64,000 nt of DNA, from IMG/VR virus record IMGVR_UViG_3300029733_000185; one strand, given 5' to 3'. The notes under the pieces were generated by a model. That model worked only from the letters and a program-made list of their open reading frames with translations, was not told the origin of the DNA and searched no databases. This DNA is from a virus (taxonomy: Duplodnaviria > Heunggongvirae > Uroviricota > Caudoviricetes). The position numbers and the translations under genes are program-made. The stretch's first letter is position 1. Each line of letters starts with the position of its first letter. Positions 3,348 through 64,000 of the stretch are shown here, in pieces.

Positions 3348-3386
3348 ACTAAAAAAGGCAGCACGCGCAAAAGCTCGTACTGCCGA
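3348..3386 (-). terminator. hairpin + U-tract immediately upstream of VirB4 RBS
   Basis: GGCAG..CTGCC stem (3357-3384), U-run, then AGGGGGTG RBS. Confidence 0.5.
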
Positions 3387-3996: not shown

Positions 3997-4003
3997 TCCT
4001 TTG

Positions 4004-4045
4004 AAAAAAAAATAAAAAGAGAACTATCAGATGATAGTTCTCCTT
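4004..4045 (-). terminator. intrinsic terminator-like hairpin
   Basis: perfect stem GAGAACTATCA/TGATAGTTCTC plus long U-run; lies between TGTTATAAT motif (4209-4222) and gene start 3996. Confidence 0.6.
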
Positions 4046-4290
4046 AAATTGCACATTTGCCTATCTGTGCATCTATTCAGTTCATATTTTCAAAAAAAAT
4101 CCAAGAAAAGATATAACTTACGCATATCCATCACTCCGATGGATTCTTTGAGTGTGATTCAATTTACGTAGGCATTCTTTTTAAGGACTTCTTTGATTTC
4201 ATCTTCTCAATAATTATAACATAGTCAAAAAAACAGGTCAATAACACCGAAGCATTATTGACCTGGTAATATCGGGAAATTCAGGAAATA

Positions 4291-9831: not shown

Positions 9832-9840
9832 CTCCGTTTC

Positions 9841-9876
9841 TAAAAAATAAGGGGCTTAAATGAATTAAGCCCCTTG
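9841..9876 (-). terminator. intrinsic terminator after pilin gene
   Basis: AAGGGGCTTAA..TTAAGCCCCTT stem plus U-run; directly precedes VirB6 RBS. Confidence 0.65.
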
Positions 9877-10401: not shown

Positions 10402-10818
10402 TTACCCATCTTTGAACAAGCCACTGCTGAAACCGCCAATACTCGGATCTTTGGCATTTGAATAGGTATAGGAGTGATTTGGCACAGCCTGACCGACAAA
10501 CTGAATGATAGCTCCGGATAAGTTGAAAATTACAAATACAGCAATAATTGTTGTTATAAATTTCAAAGCACCGGATACGACCTTTTGATCTCGACTTACC
10601 ATCACTTGAATAAGTGAGAATCCTGTCGCAAGCACACATAGTGAATTAAACCAAGGAGAGATTTGGCCAATAATGTTTTTTACTGCAGCCATACCTGCGG
10701 CTTGTGTTACTGACGGTGCTTTGGCAGCGTATGCCATGCTCGGGAAACAAAGGAAAATTCCAAGGAACATCAGAGAAAAGATTGTTCCTAAGAGAATATT
10801 TTTCGATTTTTGTGTCAC
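10402..10818 (-). CDS. VirB2/TrbC-like T4SS pilin candidate (paralogue)
   Basis: 138 aa, same architecture (signal helix ending SMAYAA, second TM); tandem with previous gene. Confidence 0.5.
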   Translation of the reverse strand: MTQKSKNILLGTIFSLMFLGIFLCFPSMAYAAKAPSVTQAAGMAAVKNIIGQISPWFNSLCVLATGFSLIQVMVSRDQKVVSGALKFITTIIAVFVIFNLSGAIIQFVGQAVPNHSYTYSNAKDPSIGGFSSGLFKDG

Positions 10819-10838
10819 AAATTCATCACCCCTTTCTA

Positions 10839-10884
10839 AGAAAAAAAGCGGGAAGGCACATCTGATAACTGTACCACTCCCGCC
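10839..10884 (-). terminator. intrinsic terminator between SpoVG-like and pilin genes
   Basis: GCGGGAG..CTCCCGC stem plus U7. Confidence 0.55.
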
Positions 10885-10909: not shown

Positions 10910-11302
10910 TTACGCAGCCTGCGGAATCGTAGAGATGCGCTCATCTGTATCTTTTTGACAAGCAATCTTGTACGCTTGCATAATACCCCGATTCAATTCT
11001 TTTGAAGCTTCAGGGCTATTTGGAAAAGCAACGCTTACAAATACGTCTTTACCATTACGCTTGCTCAGTCTCTTTGATGGATATACAATCGTAATTCTAC
11101 CAAATCGCTGAAGAATACAAATGTCATTGATTACAATGTGTCCATAAGTCACCTTCGCAAATGCCTTCAGCTCCTTCCCATTAAACAAACGAATGTCTAC
11201 CTGATACGGAATGCACATATTACCATGTGAGTCTTTCTTGAGAAGGTCGCTTACATTGATCATCATTTCCGGTGAACTGTATTCGTTTTTGTGTTCCGGC
11301 AT
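10910..11302 (-). CDS. SpoVG-family protein
   Basis: start at MPEHK with AAGGAGGA RBS; core VDIRLFNGKELKAFAKVTYGHIVINDICILQ...IVYPSKRLSKRNGKDVFVSVAFP parallels SpoVG consensus. Confidence 0.6.
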   Translation of the reverse strand: MPEHKNEYSSPEMMINVSDLLKKDSHGNMCIPYQVDIRLFNGKELKAFAKVTYGHIVINDICILQRFGRITIVYPSKRLSKRNGKDVFVSVAFPNSPEASKELNRGIMQAYKIACQKDTDERISTIPQAA

Positions 11303-11365
11303 CGAAATCCTCCTTTCATCGTATTGGATTGTTTTAAGTGTCTCGTGTATTTTTGTTCTGTGAAC

Positions 11366-11425
11366 ACAAGACACAAAAAATAAAAAGAAGGAGAACGCAT
11401 TTCGTGCCAGTTATGGCAGCTGCAT
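11366..11425 (-). promoter_or_regulatory. structured leader (terminator-like hairpin + U-tract, then second 10-bp hairpin) upstream of SpoVG-like gene
   Basis: GGAGAAUGCAGCUGCCAUAACUGGCACGAAAUGCGUUCUCC followed by UUCUUUUUAUUUUUU, then GUGUCUUGUG..CACGAGACAC. Confidence 0.5.
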
Positions 11426-11440
11426 TCTCCTTGTTAAAAT

Positions 11441-11452
11441 AATTATAACACT
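11441..11452 (-). promoter_or_regulatory. extended -10 promoter (TGTTATAAT)
   Basis: TRTGnTATAAT motif on minus strand. Confidence 0.5.
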
Positions 11453-11482
11453 TTTGTGAATTTCGGACAAATTTTATTAGTG

Positions 11483-11516
11483 AACAGAAAAAAAGGCGAC
11501 AGATTTCTCTGTCACC
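11483..11516 (-). terminator. intrinsic terminator after vWA gene
   Basis: GGTGACAG..CTGTCGCC stem flanked by T/A runs (bidirectional). Confidence 0.6.
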
Positions 11517-11523
11517 TTTTTTG

Positions 11524-13734
11524 TTATAAAAGTTTTTTGATTTTCGCCAGCAAAATTCTCGCTATTTCTGTCGGCAGTTTTTGTAGATCTCGGCCATCTA
11601 CAAGTTCTTTGCCATAAATGGCTTGCAGATTATAAAAATCGTCGCCAATAGCGATAGGAATAATTGCAATATGTGATTTTTTACATATTTTATTCAAATA
11701 TTCCATATCGTGGACCATTTGTGTATGACCGTAACCGGTGCCATTCGGACGCCCATCTGACAATACGAATAAAAACTTTTGTGTTTCTGGCCGCTTAACT
11801 AGCTTAGAAATGCCAAAACGAAGTCCATAGCCATCATGATTACAAGCATTATGTGCTTTCATAGACACAAGTTTTGAAGCATTGATGTTGTTCTTGATGT
11901 CATCCATCTTCAGATACTCGTTAATCATAACACTTCCGTACTCACAGTGACCGTAAACTCCAAATGGAATTTTAAGCTCTCTGCAAAACGCTTCCAGACA
12001 CATTGCTGCTAGTCTTGCTGCTTTCTCACGATCTCCGTCCATACTGCCAGATTCATCAACCATGATTTCGACAGCACACAGCGGACGTTTTGTCGGTGCA
12101 GTGATATCCATAAATACTCTCTCTGAACCGGACGCATACGCATTGACATCCAACATAATGCCCTCATCTTGTTCATAGTAGATATTCCCTTTTCGACGTT
12201 CCTTGAGAACTTTAAGGACTTTTTTGGCCAACGTTTTCGCAATTGCCTTCTCTTTTGATGTGAAAATTGCATTATAAGCATTTACATCAGTCTCAAAATC
12301 TCTGCGAATACTGTGTGACAGATTTGCTACTCTGCCATCTTTGATAAATCTACCGAATTCCTGGTTTTCATATTGTCGATTTAGATCTTTCAGGTTTTGT
12401 TCGGCAAAGATCTTATTCAAAACTGATTCAGAAGATTTGTTTGCTTCGTTTTCGGCTTTTGCAAAAATATCCTGCAGTGCTTTGCTGAAAGCAGGATCAA
12501 TAGGCGCTTGTTTGCTTTTATCTGTTTCTTCATTCTGTTGGCTCTGGCCGTCTGCCTTCTGATTTTTATTTTCAGAACTTTTTTGTTGCTTGTTTTGGGA
12601 ACCAACGGCATTTTTGCCATTAGTATCATTTTCACCAGATTCATCATTTGGAGAGCCAGCAGAAGCGTTTTCAGCGCCGTTTTCTTTGTTTTGCGAGTCC
12701 GTGCTAGACTGTTCAACTTTACTGCCTTCCGAGTCATTCTGAGAGCCTTCAGAGCCACTCTGATTGTCCTTGCTTGAATTGTCAGAAGAAGATTGGCTTG
12801 ACTGAGCACTCTGTCTCTGATTGGCTTGACCAACCATTGTAGAACGCGATTGTCCTTGTCCATCCTCTTGCTCATTCATCTCACTCTGGTCATCAGAGAT
12901 TGCATTGTCATCTGCAAATTGAGACAGCATATTGAGTGCCTGTTGGATTCTATCAGCTTGTTCAAAGTACTCACTAAAATACTTCCACAAGATCTGCATA
13001 ATTTTTCCAACAACGTGAAGACGATCCTCATAATTTGGCATCGACTCCACAGCAAACAAAGGCTGCGTATCCTTTAATTCCGGATACAACTTCAGACTTT
13101 CATCCGCAAAGCAACCTCTTGCCTGGCAAAGAAGCAAATTAAGCAATGCATTAATATCTTTGCTTTGAGGCGTTTCTGCTGAAATATGTTGCCGTAGACG
13201 TTCTGTCAAAGCATCAACATAGCAAGCAAATCCAGGGTACTTTTGTACAGCAAGGTACTCAATTACCGGGTCCTCAACAATGTTCGCAATTTTAAAAAAT
13301 AGCTTATCAAATAACTCTTTCGAAATTCCGTAAGCCTTCTCTACTTCATCGGTTTGCTGAAAGCCGTCAAAATATTCACCATATGGGAATACTTTTTTCT
13401 CCTGCAACTCTGCAGCTCTGGCAAAATTCGTATGCAGTCCATGACCAAAAACCTCGTGAGTCAGCTTACCAAGCGCAAGTTTTTTTCGCTCCACAAAGTT
13501 CAGACCTTTATCCAGCACAGAGTCCAAATTGATGTAGCACTCTTTGTCGGAAATCCAGGCAATCTTTCCGTCAGGGGCAAAATCTGTACGAATCGGTACA
13601 GACTTGAAACTATAATAGTTTAAACTGGAATTGGCCAGCCCTTGTAGGACTGACCGAAAACCAGATGCCTCAACTATTTCCTTGAGAGAAGTGTTTTCTT
13701 TCACAAACTCTCGAAGTTGTTTTTTATCCATCAT
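11524..13734 (-). CDS. vWA-domain protein with N-terminal HExxH zincin-like motif and Q/S/N-rich linker
   Basis: 736 aa; HEVFGHGLH near N-terminus; about 200-aa low-complexity acidic/polar region; C-terminal MIDAS DESGSMDGD; 6 nt downstream of the AAA ATPase gene. Confidence 0.7.
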   Translation of the reverse strand: MMDKKQLREFVKENTSLKEIVEASGFRSVLQGLANSSLNYYSFKSVPIRTDFAPDGKIAWISDKECYINLDSVLDKGLNFVERKKLALGKLTHEVFGHGLHTNFARAAELQEKKVFPYGEYFDGFQQTDEVEKAYGISKELFDKLFFKIANIVEDPVIEYLAVQKYPGFACYVDALTERLRQHISAETPQSKDINALLNLLLCQARGCFADESLKLYPELKDTQPLFAVESMPNYEDRLHVVGKIMQILWKYFSEYFEQADRIQQALNMLSQFADDNAISDDQSEMNEQEDGQGQSRSTMVGQANQRQSAQSSQSSSDNSSKDNQSGSEGSQNDSEGSKVEQSSTDSQNKENGAENASAGSPNDESGENDTNGKNAVGSQNKQQKSSENKNQKADGQSQQNEETDKSKQAPIDPAFSKALQDIFAKAENEANKSSESVLNKIFAEQNLKDLNRQYENQEFGRFIKDGRVANLSHSIRRDFETDVNAYNAIFTSKEKAIAKTLAKKVLKVLKERRKGNIYYEQDEGIMLDVNAYASGSERVFMDITAPTKRPLCAVEIMVDESGSMDGDREKAARLAAMCLEAFCRELKIPFGVYGHCEYGSVMINEYLKMDDIKNNINASKLVSMKAHNACNHDGYGLRFGISKLVKRPETQKFLFVLSDGRPNGTGYGHTQMVHDMEYLNKICKKSHIAIIPIAIGDDFYNLQAIYGKELVDGRDLQKLPTEIARILLAKIKKLL

Positions 13735-13740
13735 TTCTCC

Positions 13741-15282
13741 TTAATTGAGACCCAAAATAGAGTCAAGTTTATCGCTGATAATTTCAGCATAACCATCCTC
13801 CAAAGAGGTCTTGTTTTCAATTGTCAGGGCAGCAGACTGTCGTAAAGTCCCACCATTAAACTGGTAATCATTGATACAATCAATTGCCCCACGAATATCA
13901 GCAATGCCCTGCGTAATGCTTTGATCGCGGATGATTTCCTGCAACTCGCCAATGGCGTGAATGACCTTGGCCACATCTTCCCTATCGCCCTGATATCCAG
14001 TAACAGACATCACACGGTCAATCTGTTCAGAAACTGTCGGTGCATCGATCTTCTTGACATAAGCGACACGGGACAGCAGGGACAGGTTAAAGGGATTGCA
14101 TCCTTCGTAATCCACATTCGTTGTAAAAATGAATGTGGTGTTCGGATGAATGGGCACCTGCGCACCATTCGGCAAGATCAAAGTGCGATTGGAGTCCAAT
14201 ACACAATTTAAAAAGCCAAGCGTACCGGCGTTGATAATCAGTGAGGGCTCCTGGATTTCAATTATCCAGCCGTAACGACAAGCCAATACCAGTTCCGTTA
14301 AGGAATACTGAATCTCATCGTTATCGATGCCAGTCACATCAACATCCTTTTTCCAAAGGCTTTTAACTGCGCGCTGAAAGAACTTAACAAGTGCTCCGTT
14401 AGAAGCAATTTTGTTAGGCTTACCACGCAGATCACTTTCGTTTGTCATTGCAGAACAACAAATGAAAGTATACGGGATTCCGGTCATCTTGCTGAAATAT
14501 TTACCCATTTCAGACTTACCAGTTCCGGCAGGTCCATAAAAGAAGAAAGCAGGTGCCTTCCCCATCTTTTGGATGCCATTATACAGACGAGACACAAACA
14601 GTTTATCGTTGTTTGTAGGAACATAACCTTCGACAAGCTGATTGGAAGCAATACGCTCCTTCTCAAACTTGTTGTAGGAATTTTCCTGTCTGATAGTCCA
14701 ATCTCGTTCGTTAAATGTGGGTACTGAATTGACAGTTTGCTTCGCATCCATCGGAAACACCTTTGCGGAGATGCCAAGACCGCTCACAGCATGCGGATAC
14801 GGAACTCCATTGGCACACAAAGTCACAAGAGGCGTTAAGTTGTTCAAAAACGCCGGCAAAATCGGGCCGCTTAATGAGAACGGACGCCAAGGAACTATCC
14901 TGGAATTGCCATCTTCAAGATTAACAATCCTTTGCTCAATTTTTTCCTTGTCGCGTGCAGATGAAGCTTCCGTCATACAAGACGCAATGACAATAAACAT
15001 TGCATCAACTGCTGACTCGCCACTAACAGTCCGTCTATCAAAATAGACTTCCCCATGATACCAACATCCGGCAACCACCCGAGACTTATAGGTGTACTGA
15101 AGTTCGACGGCCACAGCGCCTTGGTCAGATTCAGCAATAATAACACTAAGTTTTTTATCGCTGATCAAATTGAAAAAGTAATTAATCAATTTGGCAATAT
15201 TGTTTGCCCCATCGATGTTATTAGGAACCTCATTTGCTGCAGTCAATGCCGTTCGATTCCATTTCGTTCTGTTGCTTGCCAT
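13741..15282 (-). CDS. AAA_5 (MoxR/CbbQ/McrB-like) ATPase with unknown N-terminal domain
   Basis: start MASNRTKW with AAGGAGG RBS; Walker A GPAGTGKSE; C-terminal AAA lid-like region. Confidence 0.7.
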   Translation of the reverse strand: MASNRTKWNRTALTAANEVPNNIDGANNIAKLINYFFNLISDKKLSVIIAESDQGAVAVELQYTYKSRVVAGCWYHGEVYFDRRTVSGESAVDAMFIVIASCMTEASSARDKEKIEQRIVNLEDGNSRIVPWRPFSLSGPILPAFLNNLTPLVTLCANGVPYPHAVSGLGISAKVFPMDAKQTVNSVPTFNERDWTIRQENSYNKFEKERIASNQLVEGYVPTNNDKLFVSRLYNGIQKMGKAPAFFFYGPAGTGKSEMGKYFSKMTGIPYTFICCSAMTNESDLRGKPNKIASNGALVKFFQRAVKSLWKKDVDVTGIDNDEIQYSLTELVLACRYGWIIEIQEPSLIINAGTLGFLNCVLDSNRTLILPNGAQVPIHPNTTFIFTTNVDYEGCNPFNLSLLSRVAYVKKIDAPTVSEQIDRVMSVTGYQGDREDVAKVIHAIGELQEIIRDQSITQGIADIRGAIDCINDYQFNGGTLRQSAALTIENKTSLEDGYAEIISDKLDSILGLN

Positions 15283-15305
15283 AATAAATTTCCTCCTTAA
15301 TAAAA

Positions 15306-15345
15306 AAAGAGCCATCAGCAAAGAACTGACGACTCTTTTTATTTT
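15306..15345 (-). promoter_or_regulatory. terminator-like hairpin + U7 immediately upstream of AAA-ATPase RBS
   Basis: imperfect stem AGAGUCGUCAG..CUGAUGGCUCU then UUUUUUU then AAGGAGG. Confidence 0.5.
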
Positions 15346-15407
15346 TTAATGTTTATTTTTTTATAACTATAACTTCTGTGCAAATGCGCAGAATATAATT
15401 AACACCA

Positions 15408-15421
15408 TAATTATAACACAA
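15408..15421 (-). promoter_or_regulatory. extended -10 promoter (TGTGTTATAATT)
   Basis: motif on minus strand between SSB terminator and ATPase leader hairpin. Confidence 0.5.
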
Positions 15422-15430
15422 AACGAAATC

Positions 15431-15462
15431 AAAACAAAAAAAGAGACGCATAAGCGTCTCTT
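15431..15462 (-). terminator. intrinsic terminator after ssb
   Basis: AGAGACGC..GCGTCTCT perfect stem with flanking T/A runs. Confidence 0.7.
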
Positions 15463-15473
15463 TTTGTTACAGT

Positions 15474-15884
15474 TTAGAAGGGCAGATCGTCGTCCTCGTC
15501 CACCTCTTCACCAACATCTTCGGATGCAGGCTCAGGCTTAGCAGCGGGCTTGGAAGTACCACCGCCGTTCTGACCACCAAACGCAGTCAAACCGTTGACC
15601 AGCACACGGAAGTTCCGGCGCTGATGGCCCTCTTTGTCCGTAAATTCACTGAAATCAGGAGTACCGGTTACAGTGACTGACATGCCCTTTTTCAACCAAC
15701 CCAGAGCACCGCTCTGCATACAGTCGAAGAAGTTTGCCTTTTCCTTGTTATAGGTCTGACAGGCGACCGTATAAGTCACAAACTCCTTGCCGGACTTACT
15801 GGTGCGAACTTCTGCGTCTGCCACCAGTCTGCCTGTGATCATAATACTTGCAAGATCTCTGCCTCGATTTTCTTTATTTGCCAT
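15474..15884 (-). CDS. ssb: single-stranded DNA-binding protein
   Basis: OB-fold-like core, Gly-rich linker, acidic tail ending DDDLPF; start MANKENRG with AAAGGAGA RBS. Confidence 0.85.
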   Translation of the reverse strand: MANKENRGRDLASIMITGRLVADAEVRTSKSGKEFVTYTVACQTYNKEKANFFDCMQSGALGWLKKGMSVTVTGTPDFSEFTDKEGHQRRNFRVLVNGLTAFGGQNGGGTSKPAAKPEPASEDVGEEVDEDDDLPF

Positions 15885-15914
15885 AATTATTCTCCTTTCT
15901 GGCAATTCAATATA

Positions 15915-16364
15915 TTAAGAAACACCTAAATAATAATCCCTGTCATATTTCGGTGCAAACTCAAATTTTTTAAACTTTTCATTCAGTTTTTCAAATGAGT
16001 TAAATCGCACTTTGTTGTTTGGGAAATTCAAGGTGTATTCTTCTGTCAGGGGTAGATACAAGAACATGTATTTGTTTTTAATACCTTCGTTGTCCTTGTA
16101 TTTGATGCGTTGAACAATCTGATATGGATCTTCATGCTCAACGACTTTTGCCTTCAGCTGCTTGTCACGATATGTCAGCACGATCTTTGCCAACACAACA
16201 TCGTACTGTGATGGTGCATCTTTCAGCATAATGTCATCCTTATAGGACAAGACAACATACCGATCAAAGCCATCAGATAAACACTGACTAACATAAGAAT
16301 CAAGCAGAGGCCAATATTGCTCTCTCAATTCTTCGATTGGTTTGGTGAATTTTCTTAATGCCAT
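15915..16364 (-). CDS. hypothetical protein
   Basis: start MALRKF with AGGAGATAAA RBS; no motif recognised. Confidence 0.5.
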   Translation of the reverse strand: MALRKFTKPIEELREQYWPLLDSYVSQCLSDGFDRYVVLSYKDDIMLKDAPSQYDVVLAKIVLTYRDKQLKAKVVEHEDPYQIVQRIKYKDNEGIKNKYMFLYLPLTEEYTLNFPNNKVRFNSFEKLNEKFKKFEFAPKYDRDYYLGVS

Positions 16365-16485
16365 TTTATCTCCTACAATAATATGAAAAGACGGACACCA
16401 CAAGGATGACCGTCTTAAAAGCAATTTATTTTTTGTTATAACTTATAACGTCATAATTATAACACATTTTTGTAAACGAGACAAA

Positions 16486-16911
16486 TTATGCAACATTTAA
16501 GTGTTTATTGGGCAGGCTTTCCAGCCAATCAACAAAGTCCCTATCGTACACATACCGAATGTTGTCAAGCATAAAAGCACCGGGTATAACATCCATAATT
16601 TTCTCGGCCTTAGGTCTCCCTACGCTGAAAATGTCCATAATATCCTCAACCGTGTACATTGCAGGGCGTATTTTAATGACTTTTGTGTCAACGCCCTCCC
16701 CCAAGTGCGAATAGTACATTGCTTCACTTACCAGATAGCCATTTGTAAAGTAATCACTCGCCAGAATATAGCGACGGGAATTGATGTAAAAATAATCATA
16801 TTTTTTCATTTTACAATAGGCTTGAGAATATGTGCAGCCTTCGATTCTTTGAATATCAACAGCACTGATTACATACATTTGGAATTTGCCATCATTTCTT
16901 TTAATACGCAT
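16486..16911 (-). CDS. hypothetical protein, possible HTH/excisionase-like DNA-binding protein
   Basis: 141 aa; segment YTVEDIMDIFSVGRPKAEKIMDVIP resembles a short HTH. Confidence 0.45.
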   Translation of the reverse strand: MRIKRNDGKFQMYVISAVDIQRIEGCTYSQAYCKMKKYDYFYINSRRYILASDYFTNGYLVSEAMYYSHLGEGVDTKVIKIRPAMYTVEDIMDIFSVGRPKAEKIMDVIPGAFMLDNIRYVYDRDFVDWLESLPNKHLNVA

Positions 16912-16980
16912 AACTTATCTCTCCTTGATTTTTTTTTGCAAAACAAAGGAAGCCTCAAATGAGACTTCTTTATTTAATTT

Positions 16981-17253
16981 TTAAGCGTCCTTTAGAAAAC
17001 GATTGGCGGTATCACCAACCATAACTACGCAATTGATTTTACCAAACAAATCGCGAGAATTGCGAATGGACGAAATGTCCCCGTTATAGGCAAATCGTGC
17101 GCAGTCTAAAAGAATTTGATCGGTAATTCTGGCTTTATCAATAACAACAGGCAGATGTGTCTGTGTATGAAAATAGATAAATTTGCCATCGTCTTTATAA
17201 GACCTATTAATTCCGATCAGATAACTATCCAGCTTTAAGCTGTTTGTGATCAT
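16981..17253 (-). CDS. hypothetical protein
   Basis: start MITNSLKL with AAGGGGGAA RBS; overlaps primase 3' end by 29 nt. Confidence 0.4.
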   Translation of the reverse strand: MITNSLKLDSYLIGINRSYKDDGKFIYFHTQTHLPVVIDKARITDQILLDCARFAYNGDISSIRNSRDLFGKINCVVMVGDTANRFLKDA

Positions 17254-18274
17254 TTGTTTCCCCCTTTTGTTCAACGACATACTTGAGCTCGTCGTTGATG
17301 TCTTTCCCGTGTTCGGCACGTACATCAACAATTTTTCCATCCCAATGCATATCACTCAACATCTTCTTTGTGTGCGTTCTTGCATTTTCTCCGGCCTTGT
17401 CATTATCCAAGGCAAGATAAATGGTTTCGATAGACGGGTCCTTTTCCAGCCAATACTTGATGCACTTGTATTTTGAGCACCCGGTAAGTGCCAGGTAGTT
17501 GAATTTGGCGAAATCATCACCATTTAGATCAAACAAGGACATATACGCCATTGCGTCAATCACAGCTTCCGTAACAACCATTTTATTTGAATGATTGTTA
17601 ATGTAGAAGGCATGATCTACATCGCTGCCGGTCACACCGTAAGTAATACGCTCGTTCCAGTTGGTATCTCGAACACAACCAAATACAGGAACACCGTCTT
17701 CATTGTAAGACACATATATGCACTTACCGGTAAGGTCCTGATACATATAATTGTTATCAATAAAGTAGTCGTAAACATGCGGTGTAATCTTTCGAAACCC
17801 TACCAGATATGCAAACAGCCGTTTATAACCGGTGTGCGGATCATCGCAAGGATGACGCAGAGGCAGTTTAAACTCTCTGCTAACATTACGCAATGAACTT
17901 TGTCTTTTGGATTTTGCAGCAGCGGCAAATTCATTCCGATCTGGAATGCCTGCCAAAAAGCGATTTCCGTAATCGATTAAGATCTTTACCGCCTGACTGA
18001 AATCCACGTCTTCCGTATTCATGATAAAATCGATGATGCTTCCGTGCGGATTTCTACCCTTACCTGAGTTACGCCAAAAGCAATTGGCTTGCAGGTCAAT
18101 TACAAGGGACGACATGTCATTCGAGTCCGGAGCTGCAAACTCAATCTTGGGTGTTACATAAGAACGCCCAACTTGCTTCCACTCCGTAATCCCGACCATA
18201 TCCTCGGCGTATGTCTGGATAGACACATTCTGCTTGAGATATTCGATGTCTTCTTTGTTATCCTTGAACTGCAT
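17225..18274 (-). CDS. conjugative-element primase (Toprim domain, DnaG-like)
   Basis: 349 aa; C-terminal Toprim signature ALDNDKAGE; N-terminal domain as in DUF3991-Toprim primases of Gram-positive conjugative elements. Confidence 0.7.
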   Translation of the reverse strand: MQFKDNKEDIEYLKQNVSIQTYAEDMVGITEWKQVGRSYVTPKIEFAAPDSNDMSSLVIDLQANCFWRNSGKGRNPHGSIIDFIMNTEDVDFSQAVKILIDYGNRFLAGIPDRNEFAAAAKSKRQSSLRNVSREFKLPLRHPCDDPHTGYKRLFAYLVGFRKITPHVYDYFIDNNYMYQDLTGKCIYVSYNEDGVPVFGCVRDTNWNERITYGVTGSDVDHAFYINNHSNKMVVTEAVIDAMAYMSLFDLNGDDFAKFNYLALTGCSKYKCIKYWLEKDPSIETIYLALDNDKAGENARTHTKKMLSDMHWDGKIVDVRAEHGKDINDELKYVVEQKGETNDHKQLKAG

Positions 18275-18312: not shown

Positions 18313-19248
18313 TTAAATGGAGCGCATTCTCTTGATTGTGTCAAGAATAGTCGCTCGATCATCAGGTGTCGGGTCATCAAGATAACGACACAGCGTTGCA
18401 ATCAGCTCATTCAGGGTCAAATCATCGCTGACCAAGTTGTTCTTGTAGTCTCTGCCTTTCATTTTCTTAACGAAAGTGATGAAGCCAGGGTTGTCGATAA
18501 CATCGATAACATTTTGCCCTCTAAACGAGCCATAAGGAAAGTTTGCCATCAGACACTTCTCAAGGTGTTTTTCGTCATCAGACAAAATAACATTCGTTGT
18601 GTCGGGCTCGCTTTCATCATCCTCTACCACAGGCGGAAACAGATGTTCCGGCTGTGCCTCATCGATTACAGGTACTTCTTGAACTTCCTCTTCTTTGGAT
18701 TTTTTTGTTTTCTTCTTTCTCGAAGTTTTTGGTTTTGCATCATCAGTTACATCAGAATCAGCTTTTACCGCACTCCGACGGTCAATGAGAGGCCCGTCAA
18801 CGGGCTTTTCTCCCTCATCAAACATCTGCTCCTCCCGAATGGAAAACCCTGCAGAACCCAAGCAGCGGGCCTTTGCAATGGTCTCACATCTTTCCAAAGC
18901 AGACGGGTCAGAGTCCTGGCAAGCACTTGCCTGCCCTGTCGCTACGGGAAACGTCATCTGATTTTCTGTTCCGGGGAACAATACCTCCGTCAAAGTGGCC
19001 TTCTGAATAATCATGTTGTTACTGAACTTTTGCAGTTCCGTTGTCAATGACATGACTTTCTTTGTTTCCTCTACATAGAGATTAAACCACAGCTGACGCG
19101 CCCAGGCCGGAAGATACTTTACCTTTTTGGTAATTTCCCGGCCAAACTCGTCTGTCACGATTTGGGTGCCTGTCTCGAGATAGTCAACCGGGTTGAAATC
19201 AGAGACTTTTCTTGTCAGCACCAATTGTTCCGTCTTCTTTTTTGCCAT
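18313..19248 (-). CDS. hypothetical protein (acidic central region)
   Basis: 311 aa, Lys/Glu-rich central linker; no motif recognised. Confidence 0.55.
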   Translation of the reverse strand: MAKKKTEQLVLTRKVSDFNPVDYLETGTQIVTDEFGREITKKVKYLPAWARQLWFNLYVEETKKVMSLTTELQKFSNNMIIQKATLTEVLFPGTENQMTFPVATGQASACQDSDPSALERCETIAKARCLGSAGFSIREEQMFDEGEKPVDGPLIDRRSAVKADSDVTDDAKPKTSRKKKTKKSKEEEVQEVPVIDEAQPEHLFPPVVEDDESEPDTTNVILSDDEKHLEKCLMANFPYGSFRGQNVIDVIDNPGFITFVKKMKGRDYKNNLVSDDLTLNELIATLCRYLDDPTPDDRATILDTIKRMRSI

Positions 19249-19389
19249 ATTTGTTTCTCCTTACTAAAAAAATAAATCATATACAAAATAAAAAAACCGG
19301 CCCTTCAAATGCAAAAAAATAACATAAGAAGAGTCGGTGACTCAATTTCATATATAACTTTATATTTAAGTTATACCACAGCAAAACAG

Positions 19390-20850: not shown

Positions 20851-21498
20851 TTATTGAACACCATCAGCAATCTTGCACATTATATTCTGATCTATATGAG
20901 CGCTAACTGTACCGGTAATAATGTAGATATAATCATTTTTATACTCTACAATTCGCATAGTTTGTGGTTGCGTTGTGCTTTCTAAAACAATACGTGACCC
21001 TGTGTTCTCAATTTCTTTATATCCTTCTAAATCAATAGAAACATTTACTCTTTTACGGCATTTTTCAACCTGGAACCATTCATCGTTATCATAAACATAA
21101 TGTCTGCTGATCATTGACGACGTGTTTGTTTTATGGTCGCATACAAATCCATTGGGCGCATATTCTATCTGAATTTCGCCAACACTGTCGCCTTTTGTAT
21201 CTGAACTAAAAATTAGAATGTTTGACAAGGTGCTGCGCGTAATAAGATTTTTGCCTTCAGGAACGAACGCGATACAAGAAACAAACGCTCCTACAATTAG
21301 GATGATAGCAATTGCAATAGCAACGATGCGTTTTGTAACAAAATGTTTTTTTACACTATTTGGCTTTGTTTGGTTGAAAATAGCCTTATGCAAATGTTCA
21401 TATGTTCCATATGGAATTGGCTTTTCTGATTGTTTTTGGTGCTTAACTTCATCATATTGTGCGATGATTGCAGACTTCCGAACATCTTCATCTTTCAA
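20851..21498 (-). CDS. membrane-anchored anti-sigma-factor candidate
   Basis: 215 aa; cytoplasmic N-terminus, single TM (IVAIAIAIILIVGAFVSCIAFV), extracytoplasmic domain; start overlaps stop of sigma gene by 4 nt. Confidence 0.5.
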   Translation of the reverse strand: MKDEDVRKSAIIAQYDEVKHQKQSEKPIPYGTYEHLHKAIFNQTKPNSVKKHFVTKRIVAIAIAIILIVGAFVSCIAFVPEGKNLITRSTLSNILIFSSDTKGDSVGEIQIEYAPNGFVCDHKTNTSSMISRHYVYDNDEWFQVEKCRKRVNVSIDLEGYKEIENTGSRIVLESTTQPQTMRIVEYKNDYIYIITGTVSAHIDQNIMCKIADGVQ

Positions 21499-22010
21499 TG
21501 CTTTAACTCCTCTCTCATATTCTTTTTTGCAATTTGTAATCTTTTGCGTACATAACTACTCTTCAGTCCATACATCGCTCCGATTTCTTTACTTGTATAA
21601 CCGTAAATGTAAGACAGATATACGAAAACGCGATCTAATTCCGGTAAGCGTTTGATAATATCACTTAGTTCGCCACCATTCTCGTTTGGCATTTCCGCAA
21701 TCTCTGCACATACATCCAGTGAGATATTTTGGCTACTTTGTCTACTTACTCGATGATAGTATGTAATTGCGAACCCGTTTGCAACAGTCGCTACATAATT
21801 TTTGGTTGATTCCGACTCAACAGATTCCAGGGCGTCAATATGTTTGATAAGATACAGAAATATATCTTGCAGACAATCCTCGACATCTTCCCTGCCATTA
21901 ATTCGTCGCGTAACCACCGAGTAGATCAGACGCATGTATTTGTTGTATAAAGCGTCGAACAATTGTTCGTTTGTGCTCTCAACTTTGTTTTTGTCCACTA
22001 TATCACCCAA
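21495..22010 (-). CDS. sigma-70 family (ECF-like) RNA polymerase sigma factor
   Basis: 171 aa; region-2-like DIFLYLIKH and region-4 HTH YGYTSKEIGAMYGLKSSYVRKRL. Confidence 0.7.
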   Translation of the reverse strand: MGDIVDKNKVESTNEQLFDALYNKYMRLIYSVVTRRINGREDVEDCLQDIFLYLIKHIDALESVESESTKNYVATVANGFAITYYHRVSRQSSQNISLDVCAEIAEMPNENGGELSDIIKRLPELDRVFVYLSYIYGYTSKEIGAMYGLKSSYVRKRLQIAKKNMREELKH

Positions 22011-22030: not shown

Positions 22031-22071
22031 AGAAAAAAGAAAAAAGTCAGCATCCAAAATGGACGCTGACT
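22031..22071 (-). terminator. intrinsic terminator after helicase gene
   Basis: GTCAGC..GCTGAC stem plus U-run. Confidence 0.65.
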
Positions 22072-22078
22072 TCTATTA

Positions 22079-24507: not shown

Positions 24508-24663
24508 AAAAATTTCCTCCTAAAAAAAATTAAGTTTATACTTTAATGACAAAAAAGCAGCCACCCCATCAAAGAGATAACTGCAAGAAATAAGTATAAC
24601 ACTATAATTATATCACGATTTTACCAAAAGAAAAAACGGCGCAACAATGCGCGCCGTTTTAAG

Positions 24664-38386: not shown

Positions 38387-38430
38387 AGCATAAAAAAAAG
38401 GAGCGCCAAAATGACGCTCCTCAACCCTTC

Positions 38431-44267: not shown

Positions 44268-44346
44268 AAAATTTTACCTACCTTTGAAAAAATAAAGGAG
44301 AACCGTGCAGACGGTCCTCCTGATTGACTACTTGTGAATATTACTG

Positions 44347-45623: not shown

Positions 45624-45821
45624 AAAAAACCTCCTGACAAAAGAAAAAAGGAATACTCGCGTACTCCTTTCAAAAATATTAAGTTAAATGAAAGCAGTCA
45701 CTGACCGCCATTGTTGACCTATGGATAATTATAACACAAAAAGAAAAACTTGCCAAACCACGTTCATTTTAAGCAGAATAAAACTTTTTGATTCCAAAGT
45801 TACTGAAAGGGAAAATTAATT

Positions 45822-45962
45822 ATGGGATTATTCAACAACAAAAATCCAAATGAAATTACATATGGATCTGGTAAAAAGCGTTTTACCGATGTAATTAAAA
45901 AGCAAATAAAGGCATCCTTTGCTGGTGCTTTTCCTTTATTTCTAAAAATATGTTATAATTAA
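45822..45962 (+). CDS. small protein candidate (46 aa)
   Basis: AAGGGA RBS; followed by plus-strand intrinsic terminator at 45983-46024. Confidence 0.3.
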   Translation: MGLFNNKNPNEITYGSGKKRFTDVIKKQIKASFAGAFPLFLKICYN

Positions 45963-45982
45963 ATTAATAAGTTAATGCAAAC

Positions 45983-46024
45983 GAGGCAGTTATTCGTGTA
46001 GGCGGGTATCTGCCTCTTTTTTGT
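45983..46024 (+). terminator. rho-independent terminator
   Basis: GAGGCAG..CTGCCTC stem followed by TTTTTTG. Confidence 0.6.
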
Positions 46025-57713: not shown

Positions 57714-57807
57714 TGGACTTCCCCCTTACGGATAAAAAATAGATTGAATGTGAAAAAAGAAAAGGAACACCCTTGGTGCTCCTTTCAAAAAAAAATTCAT
57801 ATATAGA

Positions 57808-57821
57808 GAATTATAACACAC
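57808..57821 (-). promoter_or_regulatory. extended -10 promoter upstream of giant gene
   Basis: TGTGTTATAATT on minus strand; followed by hairpin AAAGGAGCACC..GGTGTTCCTTTT plus U-run at 57740-57775. Confidence 0.5.
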
Positions 57822-58154
57822 TCTCCACAAAAAGGAAAACAGCGCAAGCATAATGCTTGCGCTGCAAGTTACTTAAAACAGCGTTGATTCTACATATGCA
57901 ACTCCGTGCTAATTAAGAAACACGCATTCAAACAATCTTAATACTTAATAAAAGCGCATCTCTGCAATGCATTTTTCAACCGCGGAAATTGATGCCGACC
58001 TTCTCTTTTCAAACATAAGCCTTTCTTTATACCCTTCTGTTGATAAGATATTTCTTTCACCTTTCCGAGGAGATAATTTGATTTTTTGATCAGTATATAC
58101 TCTCTTTTTGTTTACCATAATTACACCAAACATATTATTATTGTTAAGAAGAAA

Positions 58155-63412: not shown

Positions 63413-64000
63413 ATGTCACACCCCTCCGTATTCATAATATACCACACAAGACATATTAACTCAATAGCAAATTGCGCCTGTCATATTATTATATGGAAAT
63501 TATATCACACGCTACGAGCCGTAAAAATCAGACATTGACATCTCATATTTTTTAATCGTTGAAAGACAATGAAACTCTGTCTACAAATTAATACCGAAAA
63601 AAATATAAAACAAAAAGCCACACTTGGCACTCAGAATGATCTGCGCCCAGTTGTGGCAACCGATAAATATAAAGGGGTCGAATTGCTCCAACCCCTTAGG
63701 TATGAGTCCGCAAACACATACCCCGATTAATATAATTATACATCAAACAGGAAATAAAGACAAGACTTGTCAAAACAAGAGTGCAAAGCAAAAAAAAGCA
63801 GTGAAAGCGCCAACAACGACGCCTTCACTAGCTATTACTCCGCATATCCTATCCGGAGTTTTTGCCATGAGTTATCAAATTCAAATGGTGAAGTGCTTAT
63901 CGTAACACTCCGCCGAAAGCCTAACCGGTTTGAGCAATATGCTTGGTTAGGTCTGTTTTATTATATTATGCAGTTTTACTGTATTGATACACTTAAATGC

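What the first reader, a model, noticed from the sequence alone, without database searches (positions are those of the whole stretch)
15300..15425. Recurrent terminator-like hairpin plus U-tract sitting directly on the 5' side of ribosome-binding sites
At nine or more gene starts a GC-rich, often one-mismatch hairpin followed by a run of U lies 0-25 nt upstream of the RBS. Examples are 3348-3386 (VirB4), 4004-4045, 9841-9876 (VirB6), 10839-10884 (pilin), 11366-11425 (SpoVG-like), 15306-15345 (AAA ATPase), 16385-16415, 45640-45680 (YidC-like), 57740-57775 (giant gene) and 63672-63700 (Panacea gene). In several cases (4213, 11441, 15410, 16455, 45725, 57810, 63730) a strong extended -10 promoter lies upstream of the hairpin, and a separate terminator for the previous gene already exists, for example after ssb at 15431-15462. 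The hairpins therefore sit inside 5' leaders. This pattern is expected for element-wide conditional termination (processive antitermination or attenuation), or for 5' stabiliser stem-loops that set operon stoichiometry.
Basis: seen in the sequence. Interest (0 to 1): 0.65.

Follow-up and report, generated by a model that had tools for sequence, protein, structure and literature searches.

The report
Terminator hairpins gating genes of a conjugative element
A large gut conjugative element puts a full-strength transcription stop signal just before the ribosome-binding site of many genes, often right after a strong promoter, so these genes can be made only by read-through; relatives keep this layout, which varies a theme known from pLS20 and Tn916.

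Summary
On the coding (-) strand I count about 28 terminator hairpins with U-tracts in 64 kb. Under strict criteria, 23 lie on the sense strand and 8 on the antisense strand.

They fall into three positional types:
- Six end a gene and are followed by a near-consensus extended -10 promoter (T1).
- Nine lie downstream of such a promoter, in the 5' leader. One of these is on the + strand.
- Eight lie between co-directional genes, with no room for a promoter before the RBS.

Nine relatives at 45-66% protein identity keep the same layout at orthologous gaps.

None of the eight leaders folded has a competing antiterminator fold. Leader terminators look as strong as gene-end terminators. Read-through is therefore obligatory for essential T4SS genes.

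Leader hairpins form two sequence classes. One carries repeated AGU(C/U)AU, at the RNA 5' end and again in the terminator 5' arm. The other carries AAGGAGA...UCUCCUU. This points to trans-acting control, but no ConAn1, NusG/LoaP or Q homologue is present in the window.

The SpoVG leader hairpin behaves more like a 5'-terminal stem-loop.

Verdict: a new variant of terminator/antitermination control in Gram-positive-type conjugative elements. The mechanism is unproven.

The parts
15438..15465 (-). T1: terminator of ssb (12 bp stem, dG -16.6), 8 nt after the stop codon
   Evidence: Relatives have a terminator at the same place but with unrelated sequence.
15409..15418 (-). Extended -10 promoter motif TGTTATAATT of the AAA_5 ATPase unit
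   Evidence: TGnTATAAT is conserved at the same position in L001, L002, L003, L006 and L007.
15297..15340 (-). Leader terminator of the AAA_5 unit, the site of the finding. Stem of 16 bp with 3 G.U pairs, dG -20.8, U7 tract, then AAGGAGG and ATG at 15282.
   Evidence: (pair probability 0.84, no competing fold). Orthologous hairpins keep GUCAU...AUGRCGGCU.
16456..16484 (-). Promoter TTGTCT-17-TATAAT with TG, followed by the palindrome GTTATAAGTTATAAC (16435-16449)
16388..16416 (-). Leader terminator (class I, GGUCAU arm), 23 nt before ATG 16364
   Evidence: Substitutions in close relatives fall at unpaired positions.
24633..24660 (-). T1 after gene 24664-25350
24557..24615 (-). Promoter TGATATAATT (24606-24615) plus leader terminator 24584-24557 (class I, GCAGUUAU arm, 4 G.U pairs), 49 nt before ATG 24507.
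11489..11522 (-). T1 after the VWA-like gene
   Evidence: A U.G to C-G change in relatives keeps the pair.
11376..11470 (-). Promoter 11470-11442, then hairpin 11432-11388 (class II, AAGGAGA...UCUCCUU) starting about +2 to +4 of the RNA, then a U-tract. This is the SpoVG-like gene leader.
   Evidence: A hairpin at the same 5'-terminal position occurs in all eight lineages, without a U-tract in L002, L006 and L007.
10838..10884 (-). Intercistronic terminator between the SpoVG-like gene and gene 10402-10818. It lies 28 nt before the start, with no room for a promoter.
   Evidence: Present in L001, L002, L005, L006, L007 and L009.
9840..9875 (-). Intercistronic terminator between the pilin-like and VirB6-like genes (AAGGGGCUU...AAGCCCCUU), 29 nt before ATG 9819
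   Evidence: The GGGGCUU hairpin is conserved in 9 lineages, 7-26 nt before GGAGGUG.
4234..4265 (-). T1 after the M23 peptidase gene; it overlaps the -35 of the next promoter
4002..4241 (-). PrgI unit. Promoter 4241-4213. About 170 nt of leader holding a hairpin/uORF region (4148-4095, uORF MRKLYLFLDFF). Leader terminator 4050-4011 (class II) with a U9 tract, 26 nt before the start.
   Evidence: The class II hairpin AAGGAGAG..CUCUCCUU lies at the same place in 8 lineages.
3351..3384 (-). Intercistronic terminator between the 58-aa gene and the VirB4-like ATPase
45637..45756 (-). YidC-like unit. Promoter 45756-45728, small hairpin 45709-45693, and leader terminator 45671-45646 (class II) 22 nt before ATG 45623.
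57750..57865 (-). Giant-gene unit. T1 57865-57839, promoter motif 57818-57809, and leader terminator 57786-57760 (class II) 46 nt before ATG 57713.
63608..63833 (-). T1 63833-63797, promoter 63763-63735, then tandem terminators 63697-63672 and 63657-63617. No RBS follows within 200 nt.
45951..46024 (+). The only + strand unit. TGTTATAATT (45951-45960), then terminator 45983-46016 with a GCAGUUAU arm and U6, upstream of the 102-aa Zn-ribbon-like ORF 46087-46395.
44287..44321 (-). Intercistronic terminator (AGGAGG...CUCCU), 28 nt before ATG 44267
38390..38422 (-). Intercistronic terminator after the SPFH gene, 11 nt before ORF start 38386
22034..22073 (-). Intercistronic terminator between the RecD-like helicase and the ECF-type sigma factor gene
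   Evidence: A C to U change in L011 keeps a G.U pair.
19288..19338 (-). Intercistronic terminator between the DUF1848 gene and gene 18313-19248
16941..16968 (-). Weak intercistronic terminator (8 bp, dG -9.8), 37 nt before ATG 16911

Best explanation
The hairpin-plus-U-tract elements are genuine Rho-independent terminators on the sense RNA of a one-strand gene array in a large conjugative element with a Gram-positive-type T4SS.

They come in three positional types:
- T1 terminators close a unit.
- Leader terminators sit after a strong sigma-A promoter with an extended -10.
- Intercistronic terminators sit just before the next RBS.

The RBS-proximal ones are default-on gates. Most polymerases stop before the RBS is made, and the downstream gene is expressed only by read-through.

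I propose that the intercistronic ones are constitutive partial terminators. They would set stoichiometry, for example pilin-like and SpoVG-like proteins above VirB6-like and M23 proteins.

I propose that the leader ones are opened by a trans-acting, sequence-specific factor. The leaders contain no cis RNA switch. Leader hairpins, unlike T1 hairpins, keep their sequence across lineages, either as AGU(C/U)AU repeats or as AAGGAGA...UCUCCUU.

What is shown: the structures, their positions, their conservation, the absence of a competing fold, and the logical need for read-through.

What is inferred: that they terminate efficiently, that read-through is regulated, and that a factor binds the motifs.

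Approximate likelihoods: about 0.7 for real terminators acting as attenuators, and about 0.4 for the full statement including trans-acting control of the leader class.
For: - Canonical terminator anatomy, with excess over shuffles and a sense-strand bias.
- 10-13% of stem pairs are G.U, which pair only in the sense RNA.
- In relatives at 93-96% identity, the substitutions seen inside hairpins fall in loops or unpaired positions or keep pairing through wobble: A-U to G.U, G-C to G.U, U.G to C-G. I saw no pair-breaking change.
- The same positional layout occurs in lineages at 45-66% identity, where T1 sequences are unrelated.
- The hairpin-to-start distance is steadier (28-41 nt) than the stop-to-hairpin distance (22-70 nt) for the pilin/VirB6 site.
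- There is no room for a promoter between hairpin and RBS.
- Leader terminators are about as stable as T1 terminators: the means computed from the values are about -17 against about -19 kcal/mol.
- The terminator hairpin has pair probability 0.84-1.0, and its 5' arm is unpaired before the 3' arm is made, in all eight leaders.
- Subclade L005/L009/L017 has tandem leader terminators.
- AGU(C/U)A(U/A) occurs 37 times in 23 DNA-processing-side leaders against 8.8 +/- 2.9 expected, but once in 14 T4SS-side leaders.
- Over all family noncoding sense strand the motif count is 57 against 37.8 +/- 6, while its reverse complement is not enriched at 30 against 31.5.
- The U of AGUYAU is kept although its partner is G in 10 of 19 hairpins.
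- Precedent: terminator-rich conjugation operons with antitermination in pLS20 (PMC8191782, PMC13401043) and Tn916 (PMC11658703).
Against: - There are no 3'-end or expression data, so termination efficiency and promoter activity are predictions.
- No known antiterminator family reaches threshold among the 60 window proteins scanned. The window is only part of an element found on contigs of 130-357 kb.
- The units I labelled class I were chosen partly with knowledge of the motif. The unbiased enrichment is modest, with z about 3.
- The SpoVG leader hairpin lacks a U-tract in three lineages.
- The promoter-then-terminator frequency in the family (33 of 53) was not cleanly separated from an imperfect, related control set (9 of 23).
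- The hexamer motif could act at the DNA level.
Confidence: 0.4

Rival explanations
1. Constitutive leaky terminators only. The hairpins are fixed attenuators and insulators. They damp strong promoters, block spurious sense and antisense transcription in AT-rich DNA, and set protein stoichiometry. No dedicated regulator is involved, and read-through depends only on host RNAP, NusA and NusG.
For: - No antiterminator gene was found.
- Many hairpins have an A-tract upstream, which makes them bidirectional.
- The pLS20 work proposes that terminators limit spurious transcription (PMC8191782).
- The intercistronic sites follow genes likely to be needed in excess, namely the pilin-like and SpoVG-like genes.
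Against: - A strong consensus promoter followed by one or two full-strength terminators is an odd way to reach a low constitutive level.
- Tandem leader terminators occur in L005, L009 and L017.
- Leader hairpins keep their sequence while T1 hairpins do not.
- The hexamer is repeated at the RNA 5' end and in the 5' arm.
Confidence: 0.25
2. Processive antitermination of the conAn, canT or Q kind. A cis RNA or a protein loaded near each promoter makes RNAP resistant to all downstream terminators of that unit.
For: - The unit from promoter 11470 to T1 4265 must pass three terminators (11432, 10884, 9875) to express the VirB6-like and M23 genes.
- There are precedents in Gram-positive conjugative elements (PMC8191782, PMC11658703).
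- A second -10-like hexamer lies 11 nt (relatives) or 14 nt (three window promoters) downstream of the -10. This position resembles sigma-dependent pause elements used by lambda Q (the lambda comparison is from my own knowledge).
Against: - No PF17362 or NusG-like family was found in the window, and Q gave only a sub-threshold hit (PF06530, 17.6 bits against a cut-off of 26, inside sigma region 4).
- No conserved long leader RNA exists; leaders are 50-200 nt, AT-rich and unstructured apart from the terminator.
- If antitermination were processive, the T1 terminators and the many internal promoters would be redundant.
- The second hexamer is not consistent among window promoters.
Confidence: 0.13
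3. The hairpins act mainly on RNA fate rather than on termination. They would be 5' stem-loops that protect the downstream cistron from 5'-3' decay after processing, protect the upstream cistron from 3' exonucleases, or insulate the RBS from its upstream context.
For: - The SpoVG leader hairpin starts 8-11 nt after the -10 in all eight lineages and has no U-tract in L002, L006 and L007.
- Hairpins are anchored to the RBS rather than to the upstream stop.
- RBS-proximal hairpins are the sequence-conserved ones.
- 5' stem-loops and SD-like stabilisers are established in Bacillus, for example ermC, aprE, SP82 and cryIIIA STAB-SD (from my own knowledge).
Against: - Nearly all hairpins carry a U-tract of 5-9 U, conserved across lineages, which a stabiliser does not need.
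- Most leader hairpins lie 20-170 nt from the predicted 5' end.
- The SD-like arm is sequestered in the stem.
Confidence: 0.12
4. The hairpins are ordinary terminators of the upstream genes, in tandem in some gaps. The promoter-like sequences between them are fortuitous or irrelevant.
For: - Eight of the sites do lie directly after a gene with no promoter in between.
- The promoter scan as a whole is not enriched over shuffles.
Against: - The promoter motif is near-consensus, recurs 9 times exactly, and is conserved at orthologous positions in relatives with -35 and TG elements.
- Even if the promoters were inactive, the downstream genes would still need read-through, because no other promoter fits before the RBS.
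Confidence: 0.05
5. The inverted repeats and the AGTYAT or TATAAGTTATA motifs are DNA operators for an element repressor. A candidate is the conserved 141-aa protein 16486-16911, which looks to me like a two-HTH protein. On this view the RNA hairpin is incidental.
For: - A palindrome TATAA-G-TTATA lies at about +1 of many promoters in L005, L009 and L017 and at 16435-16449 in the window.
Against: - Half-site spacing in the hairpins varies from 3 to more than 20 nt.
- G.U pairs and wobble-preserving changes argue for RNA pairing.
- The motif is enriched on the sense strand only.
- U-tracts are conserved.
Confidence: 0.05

Closest known systems
pLS20 conjugation operon: many internal intrinsic terminators bypassed by the bipartite conAn system (ConAn1 protein, Pfam PF17362, plus conAn2 RNA) (PMC8191782)
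   Same: Both are Gram-positive-type conjugation genes punctuated by intrinsic terminators that must be read through. In both, terminators are thought to limit spurious transcription and allow differential expression.
   Different: pLS20 has one regulated promoter and one antitermination module at the operon start. This element has many near-identical promoters, each with its own leader terminator and a T1 closing the previous unit. No PF17362 protein is present in the window.
pLS20 cATT zipper-type attenuator: terminator Ter_up28 just upstream of the first conjugation gene, controlled by an antiterminator fold in a 456-nt leader (PMC13401043)
   Same: Both have an intrinsic terminator in the 5' leader directly upstream of the first gene of a conjugation unit.
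   Different: Here the leaders are 50-200 nt. Seven of eight have no alternative pairing for the terminator 5' arm. The feature is repeated at nine units rather than one.
Tn916 terminators T1-T3 and the cis-acting antiterminator RNA canT (PMC11658703)
   Same: Both have efficient terminators inside or in front of conjugation genes that insulate the element. Expression requires antitermination.
   Different: canT is a single cis RNA acting processively from one promoter. No comparable conserved RNA was seen here, and the terminators follow the element's own promoters.
Lambda late control: pR' promoter, tR' terminator and Q (from my own knowledge)
   Same: Both have a constitutive strong promoter immediately followed by a terminator, so that only a short RNA is made until a factor acts. 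In several promoters here a -10-like hexamer lies in the initially transcribed region.
   Different: No Q homologue was found. There are many promoters instead of one, and the hexamer is not consistent in the window.
HutP, TRAP and BglG/LicT-type sequence-specific control of a single leader terminator by an RNA-binding protein (from my own knowledge)
   Same: Both have a short motif repeated in the leader that overlaps the terminator's 5' arm. Binding there would prevent hairpin formation.
   Different: No such protein reached threshold among the 60 window proteins scanned. The motif (AGUYAU) is different. There is no RAT-like alternative hairpin, and the motif recurs in many units of a mobile element rather than in one metabolic operon.
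5'-terminal stabiliser stem-loops and SD-like stabilisers of Bacillus mRNAs, such as ermC, aprE, SP82 and cryIIIA STAB-SD (from my own knowledge)
   Same: The SpoVG leader hairpin sits at about +2 to +4 of the RNA in all lineages. Class II arms contain AAGGAG.
   Different: Most hairpins are not 5'-terminal, carry conserved U-tracts, and sequester the SD-like sequence in the stem.

Membership tests
Rho-independent (intrinsic) terminator | G+C-containing stem-loop immediately followed by a U-rich tract on the transcribed strand | tested here: met
   28 sense-strand sites have 8-17 bp stems, dG from -9.8 to -23.2 and 4-7 U in the first 8 nt. There is an excess over shuffles.
Rho-independent (intrinsic) terminator | RNA 3' ends are generated at the U-tract in vivo or in vitro | not testable with these tools
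   No transcriptome or biochemical data are available.
conAn bipartite processive antitermination (pLS20 type) | ConAn1 protein (Pfam pXO2-34, PF17362) encoded at the start of the conjugation operon | tested here: not met
   No PF17362 hit among 60 window proteins at E <= 0.01. The window covers only part of the element.
conAn bipartite processive antitermination (pLS20 type) | Large cis RNA element (conAn2) downstream of conAn1 | not testable with these tools
   No model is available, and the published conAn2 sequences are poorly conserved (PMC8191782).
conAn bipartite processive antitermination (pLS20 type) | Multiple intrinsic terminators inside the conjugation gene cluster | tested here: met
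   Terminators 11432, 10884, 9875, 4265, 4050 and 3384 lie within the T4SS genes.
Zipper-type leader attenuator (cATT, pLS20 family) | Leader terminator whose formation is prevented by extension of a long imperfect stem using complementary flanking segments | tested here: not met
   In seven of eight leaders the terminator's 5' arm has no alternative partner, and the hairpin has pair probability 0.84-1.0. The PrgI leader, which has 5'-to-U-tract pairing and a uORF hairpin, is inconclusive.
Tn916 canT-type cis RNA antitermination | Cis-acting RNA upstream of the terminators that confers processive read-through | not testable with these tools
   No sequence model is available. No conserved structured leader RNA was seen across relatives.
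Lambda Q-type antitermination | Q protein | tested here: not met
   The only hit is PF06530 at E = 0.0036, 17.6 bits against a cut-off of 26, inside region 4 of the ECF-type sigma factor 21495-22010.
Lambda Q-type antitermination | -10-like pause element in the initially transcribed region of a promoter followed by a terminator | tested here: inconclusive
   A second hexamer lies at an 11-nt offset in most promoters of L005, L009 and L017, and at a 14-nt offset in window promoters 15418, 16464 and 24615, but not in the others.
NusG paralogue (LoaP/RfaH) antitermination | NusG/KOW-domain protein encoded in the element | tested here: not met
   No such Pfam family reached threshold in the 60 window proteins scanned.
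Known riboswitch, T-box or ribosomal leader families (Rfam) | Match to a curated covariance model | tested here: not met
   At gathering scores only tRNAs and HEARO matched. Below threshold only terminator-like fragments matched: CsrC 28 bits against 61, and RsaJ 26 against 100.
5'-terminal mRNA stabiliser stem-loop | Stable hairpin within a few nucleotides of the transcript's 5' end | tested here: inconclusive
   Met for the SpoVG leader: the hairpin starts 8-11 nt after the -10 in eight lineages, with the TSS inferred, not mapped. Not met for the other leaders, where the distance is 20-170 nt.
HutP/TRAP-like protein-mediated leader control | Short RNA motif repeated in the leader and overlapping the terminator | tested here: met
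   AGU(C/U)A(U/A) occurs 37 times against 8.8 +/- 2.9 expected in 23 leaders. Copies lie at the RNA 5' end and in terminator 5' arms.
HutP/TRAP-like protein-mediated leader control | Cognate RNA-binding protein (HutP, TRAP, or CAT/PRD family) | tested here: not met
   No such Pfam family reached threshold in the 60 window proteins scanned. A SpoVG-like protein (10910-11302) is present, but its role is unknown.

The most novel reading that the evidence does not exclude
The element family runs a regulon of default-off transcription units. Each strong sigma-A promoter is followed by one or two full-strength terminators. Two dedicated factors would open them by recognising the terminator's own 5' arm: AGU(C/U)AU repeats for the DNA-processing genes, and AAGGAGA for the T4SS and surface genes. 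Candidates include the conserved SpoVG-like protein, the 102-aa Zn-ribbon-like protein, or, for the SD-like class, the 30S subunit itself. This would be a multi-operon, sequence-addressed antitermination switch for conjugation, distinct from conAn, canT, Q and N.
Probability: 0.25. Interest if true: 0.75.

Novelty: new variant of a known kind. Interest (0 to 1): 0.55.

Why it matters
If the leader terminators are gates, transfer and DNA-processing functions of a very large, uncultured human-gut conjugative element are held off after initiation, not at the promoter, and at about nine separate units.

This extends the recent picture from pLS20 and Tn916, where terminators plus antitermination control Gram-positive conjugation. 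The architecture here is different: it is modular, with many promoters.

It also yields concrete, testable RNA motifs, AGUYAU and AAGGAGA...UCUCCUU.

A practical consequence is that annotation pipelines placing operon boundaries at every predicted terminator would mis-segment such elements.

Tried and rejected
- Near-identity searches of 11000-17000 against plasmid and phage collections found nothing.
- The first genome scan with the single protein found nothing.
- The closest catalogued plasmids by VirB4, from Subdoligranulum and Vescimonas at 38-40% identity, are organised too differently to compare leaders.
- Known RNA families: none matched.
- Known antiterminators or RNA-binding regulators: none found.
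- A cis antiterminator, riboswitch-like fold was rejected for seven or eight leaders.
- The idea that leader terminators are deliberately weak was rejected. Their dG, stem length, G.U content and U-tracts resemble those of T1.
- Control for the frequency of a terminator following a promoter: the control loci turned out to be mutually related and perhaps similar elements (9 of 23 against 33 of 53), so I do not use it as a significance test.
- A regular-expression test for strand specificity of GTYAT...ATRAC hairpins was uninformative because many are bidirectional: 25 sense, 18 antisense, null 4.7.
- A MAFFT alignment of class I hairpins was too loop-variable for a clean covariance model, so none was built.
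- The SD-like arm acting as the real RBS of PrgI in L007 was rejected. A separate GGAGGUGG follows, with an AUC start.
- A literature search for SpoVG in conjugative regulation found nothing relevant.
- A search for Term-seq work on such leaders in conjugative elements found none.
Full report
**Context.** Nearly all genes in the window lie on the - strand, and GC skew is negative across almost all of it. Pfam identifies a Gram-positive-type conjugation and DNA-processing cluster:
- PrgI-like 3613-3984
- VirB4-like ATPase 811-3342
- M23 peptidase 4291-7986
- SpoVG-like 10910-11302
- AAA_5 ATPase 13741-15282
- SSB 15474-15884
- Toprim primase-like 17225-18274
- ECF-type sigma 21495-22010
- RecD-like helicase 22079-24247
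- topoisomerase 26809-28824
- YidC-like 44703-45623
- a 3383-aa ORF 47562-57713
- a Panacea-domain protein 62855-63412

There is no near-identical plasmid or phage record. Relatives at 94-96% identity sit on human-gut metagenome contigs of 130-357 kb.

- ssb stop
- a 12-bp terminator, 15465-15438
- TGTGTTATAATT, 15420-15409
- about 70 nt of AT-rich leader
- AAAAAGAGUCGUCAG-UUCUU-UGCUGAUGGCUCUUUUU followed by U/A
- AAGGAGG and ATG at 15282

My own scan with ViennaRNA energies, together with the tool's consensus scan, gives about 28 sense-strand terminators. With strict criteria (dG <= -12, hairpin <= 46 nt, at least 6 U in 9) there are 23 on the sense strand and 8 on the antisense strand. All but one of the sense ones are intergenic. 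The consensus scans show 1.6- to 2.3-fold more terminator-like sites than dinucleotide shuffles.

**Three positional types.**
- T1: directly after a stop codon and followed by a promoter. Sites 63833, 57865, 24660, 15465, 11522 and 4265.
- Leader terminators: downstream of an extended -10 promoter and upstream of the RBS. Sites 63697 plus 63657, 57786, 45671, 24584, 16416, 15340, 11432 and 4050. There is also one unit on the + strand, with promoter 45951-45960 and terminator 45983-46016 before ORF 46087-46395.
- Intercistronic terminators: in short gaps between co-directional genes, with 11-59 nt to the next start and no promoter-like sequence. Sites 44321, 38422, 22073, 19338, 16968, 10884, 9875 and 3384.

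**Promoters.** The motif TGTTATAATT occurs 9 times exactly. At up to one mismatch there are 27 matches against 10.7 +/- 3.3 expected. Several copies have TTGnCn at 17 bp. Of about 15 intergenic copies, nine are followed by a terminator before the next start codon. Six are not: 36816, 37166, 46712, 47147, 58236 and 63507.

**Conservation.**
- I fetched loci encoding AAA_5 homologues: L001 and L011-L015 at 93-96% identity, and L002, L003, L005, L006, L007, L009, L017 and L033 at 45-66%.
- Gene order is conserved: SSB, AAA_5, VWA-like, SpoVG-like, x, pilin-like, VirB6-like, M23, PrgI-like, small gene, VirB4.
- At the orthologous gaps the same elements recur.
- SSB is followed by T1, then TGnTATAAT, then a leader terminator 20-29 nt before the AAA_5 start, in five divergent lineages.
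- M23 is followed by a promoter, then the hairpin AAGGAGAG...CUCUCCUU, then a U-tract and GGAGGUG, in eight lineages.
- The pilin-like gene is followed by GGGGCUU...AAGCCCC, then a U-tract and GGAGGUG, in nine lineages.
- The SpoVG-like gene is followed by a terminator and then an RBS in six of the loci.
- T1 hairpins share structure but not sequence.
- For the pilin/VirB6 site, the stop-to-hairpin distance varies from 22 to 70 nt but the hairpin-to-start distance only from 28 to 41 nt. The hairpins are therefore anchored to the downstream RBS.

**RNA-level support.**
- 10-13% of stem pairs are G.U, in all three types.
- In the 93-96% relatives, the substitutions seen inside hairpins are of two kinds. 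Some lie in loops or at unpaired positions. The others keep pairing by wobble: A-U to G.U twice in the 4148-4095 hairpin, G-C to G.U in 22073, and U.G to C-G in 11522. I saw none that breaks a pair.
- This argues for selection on sense-strand RNA pairing.

**What they are not.**
- Rfam finds only tRNAs and a HEARO RNA above threshold, and only terminator-like fragments below it.
- I folded each of eight leaders from the inferred start to the U-tract. The terminator hairpin has pair probability 0.84-1.0, and its 5' arm is unpaired in the partial transcript. There is therefore no riboswitch-, T-box- or zipper-like alternative.
- The PrgI leader is the possible exception. It holds a second hairpin region and a small uORF (see the side observations).
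- Leader terminators are not weaker than T1. The means computed from the values are about -17 against about -19 kcal/mol, and U-tracts are similar.
- No ConAn1 (PF17362), NusG/KOW, HutP/TRAP-type or CAT/PRD family reaches threshold among the 60 window proteins scanned against Pfam, and Q gives only a sub-threshold hit. Re-scanning 15 of them against PHROGs or NCBIfam added nothing.

**Logical consequence.** No promoter fits between hairpin and RBS. Genes such as the VirB6-like, M23, PrgI, VirB4 and AAA_5 genes can therefore be expressed only by read-through of one to three canonical terminators. This holds whether or not the predicted promoters are active. Termination at these sites must be incomplete or conditional.

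**Sequence classes.**
- Leader hairpins fall into two families.
- Class II has a 5' arm AAGGAGA and a 3' arm UCUCCUU. It precedes the SpoVG-like, PrgI-like, YidC-like and giant genes.
- Class I has (A/C)AGU(C/U)AU in the 5' arm. It precedes the AAA_5 gene, gene 15915-16364, gene 24286-24507, the + strand Zn-ribbon gene, and many DNA-processing genes in relatives.
- In my reading of the hairpin lists, 21 of 43 promoter-preceded terminators carry GU(C/U)AU, against 9 of 71 others.
- The hexamer AGU(C/U)A(U/A) occurs 37 times in 23 class-I-side leaders, against 8.8 +/- 2.9 expected (maximum 19 in 2000 shuffles). It occurs once in 14 T4SS-side leaders.
- Typically one copy lies at about +2 to +14 of the RNA and one lies in each terminator's 5' arm.
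- Without pre-selection of leaders, the sense strand of all family noncoding DNA holds 57 copies against 37.8 +/- 6. The reverse complement is not enriched, at 30 against 31.5.
- The U at position 3 of the hexamer is kept although its partner is G in 10 of 19 hairpins. AGCYAU appears only once.
- Subclade L005/L009/L017 has two leader terminators in tandem, one of each hexamer variant.
- A conserved, strand-specific arm sequence, repeated upstream, is what one expects for a trans-acting RNA-binding factor that competes with hairpin formation, as HutP does (from my own knowledge). This is an inference; no protein has been identified.

**The SpoVG leader is different.** Its hairpin begins 8-11 nt after the -10 in every lineage, which is at about +2 to +4 of the RNA. 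In L002, L006 and L007 it is a 6-7 bp stem without a U-tract. That fits a 5'-terminal stem-loop. A stabiliser role is known for ermC and aprE leaders in Bacillus (from my own knowledge). A terminator is the poorer fit here.

**Comparison with known systems.**
- pLS20 has many terminators inside its conjugation operon, bypassed by ConAn1 and conAn2 (PMC8191782). It also has a leader terminator just upstream of the first gene, controlled by a zipper-type antiterminator fold in a 456-nt leader (PMC13401043).
- Tn916 has terminators T1-T3 and a cis antiterminator RNA, canT (PMC11658703).
- The present element shares the principle: terminators that must be read through in a Gram-positive-type conjugation cluster.
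- It differs in architecture. It has many units, each made of T1, a strong promoter, one or more leader terminators and an RBS. Its leaders are short and have no switch. Its terminator arms are sequence-conserved. No recognisable ConAn1 is present.
- I therefore rate it a new variant of a known kind.

**Limits.** Everything about function is prediction. The window is a fraction of the element. The class-I unit set was chosen partly with knowledge of the motif. My control for the frequency of a terminator following a promoter was not independent.

**Side observations.**
- PrgI-like genes in five relatives seem to start at AUA, AUC or AUU.
- A uORF, MRKLYLFL(D/G)FF, in the PrgI leader stays in frame in three haplotypes despite indels in T runs.
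- The window holds 26 tRNA genes and an IscB/HEARO pair.

Noticed in passing
window 29645-30538 and 32479-35538 (- strand); 30772-32115 and 32189-32435: 26 tRNA genes lie in two arrays. Between them sits an IscB-like RRXRR/HNH protein (447 aa) with its HEARO/omega RNA (129 bits). All of this is embedded in a conjugative element whose close relatives lie on gut contigs of 130-357 kb. A sub-threshold tRNA-Sec-like match lies at 30626-30709.
   Followed up: partly
L002:15105-15170, L005:19700-19760, L006:20838-20900, L007:20925-20990, L033:20220-20290: PrgI-like genes of relatives appear to start at AUA, AUC or AUU, 5-7 nt after GGAGGUG. The conserved N-terminal motif IPxNYEDN lies upstream of the AUG chosen by gene callers. 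The window copy starts at an AUG.
   Followed up: partly
window 4090-4150 (- strand): The PrgI leader holds a small uORF, MRKLYLFLDFF. Its SD (GGAG) lies in the loop of hairpin AUCCAUC/GAUGGAU. That hairpin shares its arm with an outer terminator-like hairpin (4148-4095). The uORF stays open in three haplotypes despite indels in T runs (L001...LGFF; L011: four-residue extension). This looks like a classical ribosome-mediated attenuator upstream of the main leader terminator.
   Followed up: partly
window 16435-16449 (- strand); L005:1068-1078, L017:3928-3938 and 8889-8899: The palindrome TATAA-G-TTATA (window: GTTATAAGTTATAAC) lies just downstream of the -10. It equals a second -10-like hexamer at an 11-nt offset in most promoters of the L005/L009/L017 subclade, and at a 14-nt offset in window promoters 15418, 16464 and 24615. 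It could be an operator, a tandem promoter or a sigma-dependent pause element.
   Followed up: partly
window 46087-46395 (+ strand): This is the only convincing + strand gene in the window. It encodes a 102-aa protein with a CX4C...CX2C Zn-ribbon-like motif and no Pfam hit. It is preceded by the same promoter-terminator-RBS module, and is a possible regulator.
   Followed up: partly
window 57945-58118 and 60998-61180 (- strand): Two small basic proteins (pI about 10) share a C-terminal ...R(K)RS(A)SISA...C.A..(M/I)RFY. They match no family. The first lies directly upstream of the giant gene's T1-promoter-terminator module.
   Followed up: no
window 47562-57713 (- strand): A 3383-aa ORF with a signal-peptide-like N-terminus and no Pfam match at E <= 0.01.
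   Followed up: no
window 61857-63412 (- strand): Three adjacent genes: a Panacea (SocA-like antitoxin) domain protein, an unknown 183-aa protein and a SecB-like protein. The arrangement resembles a toxin-antitoxin-chaperone module.
   Followed up: no
L033 (JBJEGN010000049.1): The only hit in the species-genome collection, at 60% AAA_5 identity and with the same hairpin layout, is a contig binned as Candidatus Gastranaerophilaceae. The nearest catalogued plasmids by VirB4 are from Oscillospiraceae. The host of this element family is therefore uncertain.
   Followed up: no
window 20851-22010 (- strand): An ECF-type sigma factor is followed by a 215-aa protein with a predicted membrane segment; its counterpart in L001 has a weak DUF4367 hit. 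The pair is conserved in L001 and L006 and sits directly behind the RecD terminator 22073. It may be a sigma/anti-sigma pair driving another promoter class.
   Followed up: no
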